A stretch of 64,000 nt of DNA from Eledone cirrhosa. Its lineage: Eukaryota. The DNA is taken from positions 149,854,001 to 149,918,000 of the forward strand of contig OZ024743.1 of NCBI GenBank assembly GCA_964016885.1. Reading direction: 5' to 3'. Position numbers and translations under genes: made by a program. Positions 53,699 to 57,824 of the stretch are shown here, in pieces (positions within the stretch are counted from its first letter, which is position 1; the number at the start of each line of letters is the position of its first letter). A model generated the notes under the pieces. The model did not search any database and was not told the origin of the DNA. It saw only the letters and a program-made list of their open reading frames with translations.

Positions 53699-53724
53699 TA
53701 TGATTTTATATATATATTATATAT

Positions 53725-53805
53725 ATATTTAATATAGAAATGGCTTCTACAGGACTAGAACTGTTACTTACTGTGGTTACCCTCAATTGAACCAGGGATA
53801 AACTT
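53725..53805. mobile_element. Internally deleted copy of the 57632-57827 hammerhead element
   Basis: Identical left arm ATATTTAATATAGAAATGGCTTCTACAGGACTAGAACTGTT joined through GTT to the 3' end ACTTACTGTGGTTACCC..ATTGAACC.GG.ATAAACT; sits in (TA)n. Confidence 0.85.
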
Positions 53806-53916: not shown

Positions 53917-54411
<495 letters not shown>

Positions 54412-55261: not shown

Positions 55262-55328
<67 letters not shown>

Positions 55329-55418
55329 CATTTATATATATATATATATATACAAATAAAATATAGAGTTATTAACTCATATAGATACCCTGTAATTAAC
55401 AAGCTCAAAGTATAAATA

Positions 55419-55597
55419 CTGGCAGTATCGGTAGACGGTTGGACGCCATGCTTTCTAGTATAGTTATGTCCCTTTACAGTCTGAGTTCAAATCCCGCCGA
55501 GGTTAACTTTGCCTTTCATCCTTACGGAGTCGATAAAATAAAGTACCAGTAATGTACTGGGTAATTGATGGCCTTGTGCCTAAAGTAGAAACAATTA
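55419..55597 (+). mobile_element. SINE family A, young short variant
   Basis: A/B boxes, family core and tail; CpGs intact. Confidence 0.92.
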
Positions 55598-55603
55598 TAA
55601 TAT

Positions 55604-56180
55604 TAATATGTGTAGAACACAGTAAACCCATGTCTAAAATTACGAGGGTAGATTACACCAGAAATGTTATATATCATTCAACCTGAATCATATGGGATGT
55701 TACAAGATTTCTTATAAGATTTCTCATACATACCATATCAATAACCATTTCATCTCCCGGACAGACTAAAGCTTTAATCTGTTTCGCCCTGAAGGAATCG
55801 TGTTTGTAACAAGTAATCCGTAGGCTTGAGTGTAAATAGGCTATTATTTCTAGCAAAACCACTTGCACCGCATATGACTTTCAACACACGAGGTGTAAAC
55901 TTTAGTGAGTTTATTGTTATGTAACATTTAGTCTTATCTCTCGCTGACGAAATGCCTACGGATTACTTGTTACAAACACGATTCATTCAGGGTGAAACAG
56001 ATTAAATCTTTAGTCTGTCCGGGAGATGAAATGGTTATTGATATGGTATGTATGAGAAATCTTGTAAGAAATCTTGTAACATCCCATATGATTCAGGTAG
56101 AATGATATATAACATTTGTGGTGTAATCTACCCTCGTAATTTTAGACACGGGTTTACTGTGTTTACTTCTACACATATTA
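55604..56180. mobile_element. Fold-back element (arms 55604-55825 and 55954-56180, 128-bp spacer); Penelope-like pLTR remnant
   Basis: About 220-bp inverted repeat with few substitutions and one 5-bp indel; contains a hammerhead; right end abuts (TA)n. Confidence 0.85.
55934..56029 (+). ncRNA. Type I hammerhead ribozyme candidate
   Basis: Stem I TTATCTCTCG/CGGGAGATGA (10 bp, 2 G-U); CTGACGA 55944-55950; GAAA 55994-55997; stem III ACAGATTAAA-TC-TTTAGTCTGT; GUC cleavage triplet 56017-56019. The base of stem II is imperfect. Confidence 0.8.
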
Positions 56181-56240
56181 TTATATATATATATATATAT
56201 ATATGTACATATATATGTATATATATATGTATATATATAT

Positions 56241-57550: not shown

Positions 57551-57631
<81 letters not shown>

Positions 57632-57635
<4 letters not shown>

Positions 57636-57824
57636 TTAATATAGAAATGGCTTCTACAGGACTAGAACTGTTTCGGGTGAAATCATCAGGAAGCTTCCCG
57701 ATGATTTCTCCCGAATGAAACAGTTCTAGTCCTGTAGAAGCCATTTCTATATTAAATATTTACACTCTTCTATGTATTGAGTACGTTACTTGCTGTGGTT
57801 ACCCCTGATTGAACCCGGAATAAA

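What the first reader, a model, noticed from the sequence alone, without database searches (positions are those of the whole stretch)
55604..56180. 220-bp inverted repeat overlapping a nearly complete hammerhead whose antisense arm would mask it
Seen: a 10-bp stem I, CUGACGA, GAAA, a near-palindromic 22-nt stem III and a GUC site. The stem II region is unusually long (43 nt) and imperfect at its base. The left arm starts inside stem II, so only the + strand has the full core, and a read-through transcript would pair the upstream arm over stems II, III and I'. The spacer is open in one frame ending HMTFNTRGVNFSEFIVM*, faintly like Penelope ORF C-termini (weak). Inference: a ribozyme-versus-long-hairpin competition and a possible ADAR or Dicer substrate.
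Basis: partly seen in the sequence, partly recalled or inferred. Interest (0 to 1): 0.75.

Follow-up and report, generated by a model that had tools for sequence, protein, structure and literature searches.

The report
Penelope-inserted hammerhead repeat, SINE hotspot
This fold-back is one ordinary copy of a small non-coding repeat that carries a hammerhead-ribozyme motif and was likely pasted in back-to-back by a Penelope-type jumping-gene enzyme; the one oddity is that another mobile element lands at the same spot in about four of ten such copies.

Summary
The inverted repeat (55600-55825 / 55954-56184, 97%) and the type I hammerhead motif are real. Both belong to a family of ~470-480-bp non-coding units with several hundred insertions. 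The true left arm is longer (55350-55825) and includes a SINE and an ~80-bp tail. Back-to-back arms are the family's normal footprint: 41 of 68 loci, with a tail on exactly one end in 39 of 41, as published for Penelope-like elements. The arm covers the cleavage site in 13 of 41 such loci, so the overlap looks like a random truncation, not a designed switch. The spacer ORF exists only through a change found in 2 of 30 copies. The hammerhead is conserved across subfamilies 70-95% alike, but its A9-G10.1 linker is 1-3 nt, and this copy has a damaged G10.1-U11.1 pair. Copies show no A-to-G footprint; no RNA data and no coding parent were found. Side result: a SINE occupies the unit/tail junction in 45 of 115 exact junctions (39%), against about 8% for the same target elsewhere. 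The scan has reported similar families in this genome, though not this one by sequence. Verdict: new member of a known kind.

The parts
55262..55349 (.). (TA)n tract, left flank (insertion target)
   Evidence: sequence
55350..55421 (-). Antisense 'tail' (unit positions U10-U81), outer end of the left arm
   Evidence: blast to natural unit of L012
55420..55598 (+). 5'-truncated SINE inserted at the unit/tail junction; its 3' end sits on the C|ATTATAAT target, with a TG microhomology and loss of U1-U9 at its 5' end
55600..55825 (-). Left arm: antisense 5'-truncated unit (U249-U479); 5 substitutions and a 5-bp deletion against the family majority
55827..56184 (+).
55934..56029 (+). Type I hammerhead motif: stem I 55934-55943/56020-56029; core CUGACGA 55944-55950; 3-nt linker 55951-55953; stem II base 55954-55957/55990-55993 (C11.1 changed to U at 55993 in this copy); GAAA 55994-55997; stem III 55997-56005/56010-56018; C17 at 56019
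55817..55924 (+).
56180..56240 (.). (TA)n-type tract, right flank
   Evidence: sequence

Best explanation
This is a 5'-truncated, two-armed insertion of a ~479-bp protein-free repeat with a conserved hammerhead motif, likely a non-autonomous Penelope-type element (non-LTR retrozyme) that was likely copied from both ends of a break in a (TA)n tract. Steps. (1) Shown: the unit recurs head-to-tail and as back-to-back arms with 3' ends outward, ending either at U479 or about 81 nt further (the tail). (2) Inferred: a Penelope RT-endonuclease acting in trans cut both strands, primed one cDNA at the tail site (left arm) and one at the unit end (right arm), and the two truncated cDNAs were joined at 55826. 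(3) Inferred: in the source elements the hammerhead cuts tandem transcripts into monomers, possibly circles. (4) Shown by prediction: in this copy a read-through transcript would form a long hairpin that hides the ribozyme, and the ribozyme has a weakened G10.1-U11.1 pair, so the copy is probably dead and the overlap incidental. (5) Shown: a SINE sits at the unit/tail junction here and in about 39% of such junctions; inferred to be separate later insertions into a hot spot.
For: Family: 1304 first-look candidates, best 40 at 93-100%; 479 exact matches to a 19-nt motif near the 3' end. Footprint: 41 of 68 independent loci have arms in both orientations, all 41 head-to-head; tail on exactly one outer end in 39, on both in 0, on neither in 2; outer ends at U470-479 in 50 and U75-84 in 44 of 109 arms. 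Craig 2021 (PMC8557442, passages incl. Fig. 2 legend) describes partial tandems, an inverted 5'-truncated copy and a tail often at one end only. Frangieh 2024 (PMC11167929, parts 1-2 of 4) shows both-strand cleavage and extension and two RT start sites bounding the tail. The tail is the most conserved part between subfamilies A and B (1 of 81 differences vs 55 of 302). Hammerhead stems not fixed by the search pattern differ at 2 of 43 positions vs 55 of 302 (p=0.026). Across 17 copies 96.5% of stem cells pair, position 7 varies (T9, C5, G3), and U16.1 and C17, not selected for, are invariant. Of 6 loci picked by the 3' motif alone, run through the core search and covering the core, 5 keep it.
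Against: No coding parent was found: the young 775-aa Neptune-like family shares no significant DNA similarity with the unit, and no shared non-unit upstream sequence was seen in the block maps and flanks. Covariation does not exceed the shuffle control (264 of 500 shuffles as high; 1 two-sided change), and most of the core invariance in that alignment was fixed by the regex used to pick copies. Rfam gives no hammerhead hit. The 81-nt tail is longer than the 30-40 bp in the papers read. Long arrays were not seen; two-hammerhead tandems are rare in the sample (L010, L228). 5' ends show no clear pile-up at the cleavage site (judged by eye).
Confidence: 0.85

Rival explanations
1. One reading: a functional switch in which the antisense arm competes with the ribozyme and feeds ADAR or Dicer.
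For: The arm does pair over stems II, III and I'; the hairpin is predicted at about -392 kcal/mol and would be a dsRNA substrate if transcribed.
Against: Arm end points are scattered and cover the cut site in 13 of 41 loci. The hairpin wins by 87-100 kcal/mol, so there is no two-state balance. This copy's ribozyme is damaged (C11.1 is T in 3 of 54 subfamily-A segments) and is predicted to fold in 0.2-2% of the ensemble even without the arm. No A>G excess in copies.
Confidence: 0.04
2. The unit is the terminal repeat (pLTR) plus leader of an autonomous Penelope element whose coding copies were not sampled.
For: DNA searches score only the best 40 candidates, and about 90 of several hundred loci were mapped. 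Truncated PLE ends look like this.
Against: U479 joins directly to U1 and U1-479 is continuous in many copies of several subfamilies. Every frame of the unit has stops. No mapped locus showed a shared coding extension.
Confidence: 0.08
3. For the SINE hot spot only: the Penelope endonuclease keeps nicking its own junction and the SINE's reverse transcriptase uses those nicks, rather than the SINE merely liking the wider sequence context.
For: 45 SINE-bearing vs 70 empty exact junctions, against 19 of about 244 for the same 13-bp target outside the family (p=4e-12 if events are independent). 4 of 11 in a sample picked by the 3' motif only (read by eye). 23 distinct junction strings in 24 rows. 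Of 8 arms with two junctions, 4 have a SINE at one only and 1 has two different SINEs. The site is where tail-less copies end.
Against: The site matches the SINE's ordinary target (C|ATTAT in 25 of 34 duplications, which also explains the orientation bias). The enrichment is only about 5-fold, and 2.5-fold if just 100 of the 382 sites are non-family. Wider context or the palindromic AT-rich structure could explain it. Some sites are duplicates (L203-L205), and L003, L071 and L078 share a breakpoint.
Confidence: 0.25

Closest known systems
Metazoan non-LTR retrozymes (Cervera and de la Pena 2020, PMC7229834, passages read; Li, Clavereau and Pollet 2026, 10.64898/2026.07.22.740005, parts 1-2 of 5 read)
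   Same: Protein-free, AT-rich unit of a few hundred bases with a type I hammerhead; head-to-tail repeats; mostly monomers and partial tandems; proposed Penelope origin.
   Different: Stem III is long (8-9 bp) rather than 1-2 bp, the stem II region is 35-43 nt, and the A9-G10.1 linker reaches 3 nt. No long arrays seen. Expression and circles not shown here.
EN+ Penelope-like elements, insertion architecture (Craig et al. 2021, PMC8557442, passages; Frangieh et al. 2024, PMC11167929, parts 1-2 of 4)
   Same: Partial tandems, inverted 5'-truncated copy, tail at one end only, (TA)n targets, no discernible target duplication.
   Different: No ORF; tail about 81 nt rather than 30-40; no sequence-related autonomous element found.
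PLE hammerheads (Cervera and de la Pena 2014, PMC4209133, parts 1-2 of 4)
   Same: Type I topology, unpaired nucleotide between 9 and 10.1 (one nucleotide in the oldest subfamily, L213/L217/L218), G10.1-C11.1, palindromic helix III. That paper also reports hammerhead pairs 100-700 bp apart on opposite strands.
   Different: Younger subfamilies have 2 or 3 unpaired nucleotides. I saw no such linker in the passages read of that paper, PMC3088659 or PMC1636495, or in the listing.

Membership tests
Non-LTR retrozyme | Type I hammerhead with conserved core | tested here: met
   partly circular selection noted; no Rfam hit
Non-LTR retrozyme | Short non-coding unit in head-to-tail repeats | tested here: met
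   479-bp unit, stops in all frames, partial tandems in many loci
Non-LTR retrozyme | At least two consecutive complete hammerheads in a source copy | tested here: inconclusive
   L228 has two without a SINE between; L010 has two with a SINE between; this window has one
Non-LTR retrozyme | Self-cleavage and circular monomer RNA | not testable with these tools
   no RNA holder listed; needs a bench assay
Penelope-like element (autonomous, EN+) | ORF with PLE RT and GIY-YIG endonuclease | tested here: not met
   no ORF in the unit; no Pfam hit for the open frame
Penelope-mobilised non-autonomous element | Inverted 5'-truncated copy, tail at one end, microsatellite target | tested here: met
   41 of 68 loci two-armed; 39 of 41 with one tail; (TA)n flanks seen
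Penelope-mobilised non-autonomous element | Terminal sequence shared with an autonomous partner | tested here: inconclusive
   one autonomous family tested, no similarity; other PLE families not tested
MITE / DNA transposon with terminal inverted repeats | Fixed inverted termini of equal length in all copies | tested here: not met
   arm lengths and inner breakpoints vary in every locus; 27 of 68 loci have one orientation only

The most novel reading that the evidence does not exclude
The unit/tail junction of this Penelope-driven ribozyme repeat is a persistent nicking site of the Penelope endonuclease, and an abundant LINE-dependent SINE uses those nicks, filling about four in ten junctions in separate events. 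One retroelement's cuts would then steer another's insertions. In addition, the family's hammerhead would stay active while its A9-G10.1 linker grew from one to three nucleotides.
Probability: 0.2. Interest if true: 0.6.

Novelty: new member of a known kind. Interest (0 to 1): 0.3.

Why it matters
The finding as posed is ordinary: an expected Penelope-type insertion footprint on a probably dead copy, and this scan has logged many such families in this genome. Two by-products are testable. First, a natural series of 1-, 2- and 3-nt insertions at one hammerhead core position, each in amplified subfamilies, would show how much the core tolerates there. Second, a SINE hot spot at the site where Penelope insertions start or end would, if caused by the Penelope endonuclease, give a genomic read-out of where that enzyme cuts in vivo.

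Tried and rejected
Rfam: no hammerhead hit in the region or in 5 related loci. Spacer ORF as a Penelope C-terminus: rejected. Neptune-like 775-aa family as parent: rejected on DNA similarity; its fragment in L002 is only a neighbour. Expression: no RNA holder listed. Runs X1-X3 (one sample, unknown kind, contigs only) cannot show ends, strand or editing; their abundant stem III variant has 1-8 matches in this genome, so they probably come from a related organism. ADAR footprint in copies: none (two older copies have 4-5 A>G, not followed up). SINE carried in one master or circle: disfavoured by varied 5' junctions and discordant double junctions. My first SINE background (about 1% of all ATTATAAT sites) overstated the enrichment and was replaced by the matched 13-bp target test. 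The motif densities in step 3 were inflated by selected loci and were not used. Age test: occupancy does not differ between A (37 of 92) and the older B (8 of 23), p=0.81; this does not decide between insertion later and insertion at the same time. Twelve overlapping loci were dropped before the counts on 68 loci. Literature searches for SINEs nested at Penelope junctions and for longer A9-G10.1 linkers listed nothing on point; only listings were seen for these, and no supplements were read.

Full report
Observation. The inverted repeat is present: arms 55616-55825 and 55954-56163, 97% complementary, extendable to 55600 and 56184. Rfam has no matching model here.

What the element is. The right arm plus spacer belongs to a repeat family: 1304 first-look candidates, 479 exact matches to a 19-nt motif near its 3' end and 98 to a two-half hammerhead pattern, with 0 for the reversed controls. 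The host is a 3.0-Gb AT-rich animal genome; I suspect a cephalopod from recall only. Mapping loci onto a natural 479-bp unit from L012 (U1-U479; core at U239, C17 at U314) shows head-to-tail continuity from U479 to U1 and stops in all frames. The window reads: (TA)n, antisense tail U81-U10 (55350-55421), a SINE (55420-55598), antisense U479-U249 (55600-55825), one extra base, sense U113-U479 (55827-56184), (TA)n.

The inversion is the family's footprint. Of 68 independent loci (12 overlapping ones dropped), 41 have arms in both orientations, all with 3' ends outward. The tail is on exactly one outer end in 39 of 41 and on both in none. Outer ends fall at U470-479 in 50 and U75-84 in 44 of 109 arms. 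These loci were picked for holding the hammerhead region, so the first-arm lengths are biased. Craig 2021 describes this layout for Penelope-like elements (PMC8557442, passages). Frangieh 2024 shows a Penelope protein cutting and extending both strands, with two start sites that bound the tail (PMC11167929, parts 1-2 of 4). Cervera 2014 already noted hammerhead pairs on opposite strands (PMC4209133, parts 1-2 of 4). Priming from both ends of a break is my inference from these.

The overlap is incidental. Inner arm ends scatter along the unit, and the arms overlap at the cleavage site in 13 of 41 loci. In a read-through transcript the hairpin is predicted to beat the hammerhead by 87-100 kcal/mol. 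Without the arm this copy adopts the hammerhead fold in 0.2-2% of the ensemble, against 12% for L003 in a similar local window, because C11.1 is T here (3 of 54 subfamily-A segments). The spacer frame is open only because a TAA present in 24 of 30 copies reads AAA here, and it has no Pfam hit. Family copies show no A>G excess, and no RNA run is available.

Is the hammerhead real? A sister subfamily B is about 80% identical, and older ones are 69-77% identical. Between A and B, stem positions not fixed by the search differ at 2 of 43 against 55 of 302 elsewhere (p=0.026). In 17 natural copies 96.5% of stem cells pair, changes are mostly Watson-Crick to wobble, position 7 varies, and U16.1 and C17 are invariant. 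Against this, covariation is not above the shuffle control (264 of 500), and the regex that picked the copies fixed most core letters. Of 6 loci sampled by the 3' motif alone, tested and covering the core, 5 keep it. The oldest subfamily has the published single unpaired base between A9 and G10.1 and a Watson-Crick stem II base; others have 2 or 3. I put activity of intact family copies at about 0.65 and of this copy at under 0.2. PLE hammerheads are often weak in vitro and the one in PAc needs protein.

Partner. A young Neptune-like family with intact 775-aa frames exists but shares no significant DNA similarity with the unit. No mapped locus showed a shared coding extension. Mobilisation in trans by some Penelope enzyme therefore rests on the footprint and on the conserved tail (1 of 81 differences between A and B).

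The SINE hot spot. The SINE variant has 115,881 exact 31-nt matches and normally inserts at C|ATTAT with 9-22-bp duplications (25 of 34 with C; found in 34 of 60 loci). The unit/tail junction holds such a site. Genome-wide, 45 exact junctions carry the SINE and 70 are empty; in the 68 loci it is 19 of 57; in new loci picked by the 3' motif it is 4 of 11 (read by eye). Of 92 SINEs followed by the 13-bp target, 73 are in or beside the family and 19 outside (and positions of known loci). About 225 of the 382 C-preceded target sites are at most non-family (41 of the first 100 are family). That gives 8% against 39%, or 16% against 39% if only 100 are non-family. The 5' junctions are nearly all different, two SINE variants and both subfamilies are involved, arms with two junctions are often discordant, and tandem SINEs occur (L047, L069, L200). 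These point to separate insertions into DNA. The cause is open: nicking by the Penelope endonuclease at its own junction (0.25) or wider sequence and structure preference of the SINE's own machinery (more likely). I found no report of this (listing only).

Comparison and verdict. It works like a metazoan non-LTR retrozyme or non-autonomous Penelope element (PMC7229834, passages; bioRxiv 10.64898/2026.07.22.740005, parts 1-2 of 5). Membership is met on motif and organisation and untested on cleavage and circles. The repeat annotation paper PMC13282606 (passages) does not mention hammerheads or retrozymes in its main text; its supplements were not read. Earlier notes of this scan describe several unrelated families in this genome with the same footprint; none matched this family by sequence. 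They are unchecked and are not counted as support. Novelty: new member of a known kind. Interest 0.3.

Noticed in passing
window 53917-54370: A second two-armed element (204-nt arms, 96%) in (TA)n/(CA)n, each arm with a CTGATGA...GAAAT hammerhead-like core (54083 on -, 54204 on +); unrelated to the family studied.
   Followed up: no
window 57625-57790 and 53718-53805: A third, very short hammerhead-bearing fold-back element (core at 57689 on -) and a fragment of its end; pieces of the same family flank L004, L009 and L017.
   Followed up: no
L171-L175 (e.g. L173 1429-3754): Very young, abundant Neptune-like Penelope family with intact 775-aa frames (14765 first-look candidates). In L172 its 3' end has a hammerhead-like fold with U3/A8 in place of C3/G8, read by eye.
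   Followed up: partly
L213, L217, L218, L219, L226, L228, L237, L239, L252: Graded series of 1-, 2- and 3-nt linkers between A9 and G10.1 in related subfamilies.
   Followed up: partly
L013 1283-2140: Rare case of the SINE inserted in the opposite orientation at the same palindromic junction, plus a SINE between the two arms.
   Followed up: no
L076, L078: Two older copies with 4 and 5 A>G changes against 1 and 0 T>C; possibly lightly edited templates.
   Followed up: no
L003, L016, L021, L056 flanks: Fragments of other Penelope-type RT frames (Naiad- or Hydra-like by recalled motifs) lie within 1.5 kb of family copies.
   Followed up: no
window 55774-55790 (left arm): A T-to-G change at U302 makes stem III of the left arm a near-perfect palindrome; L029 has the same change, which may be quasi-palindrome correction.
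   Followed up: no
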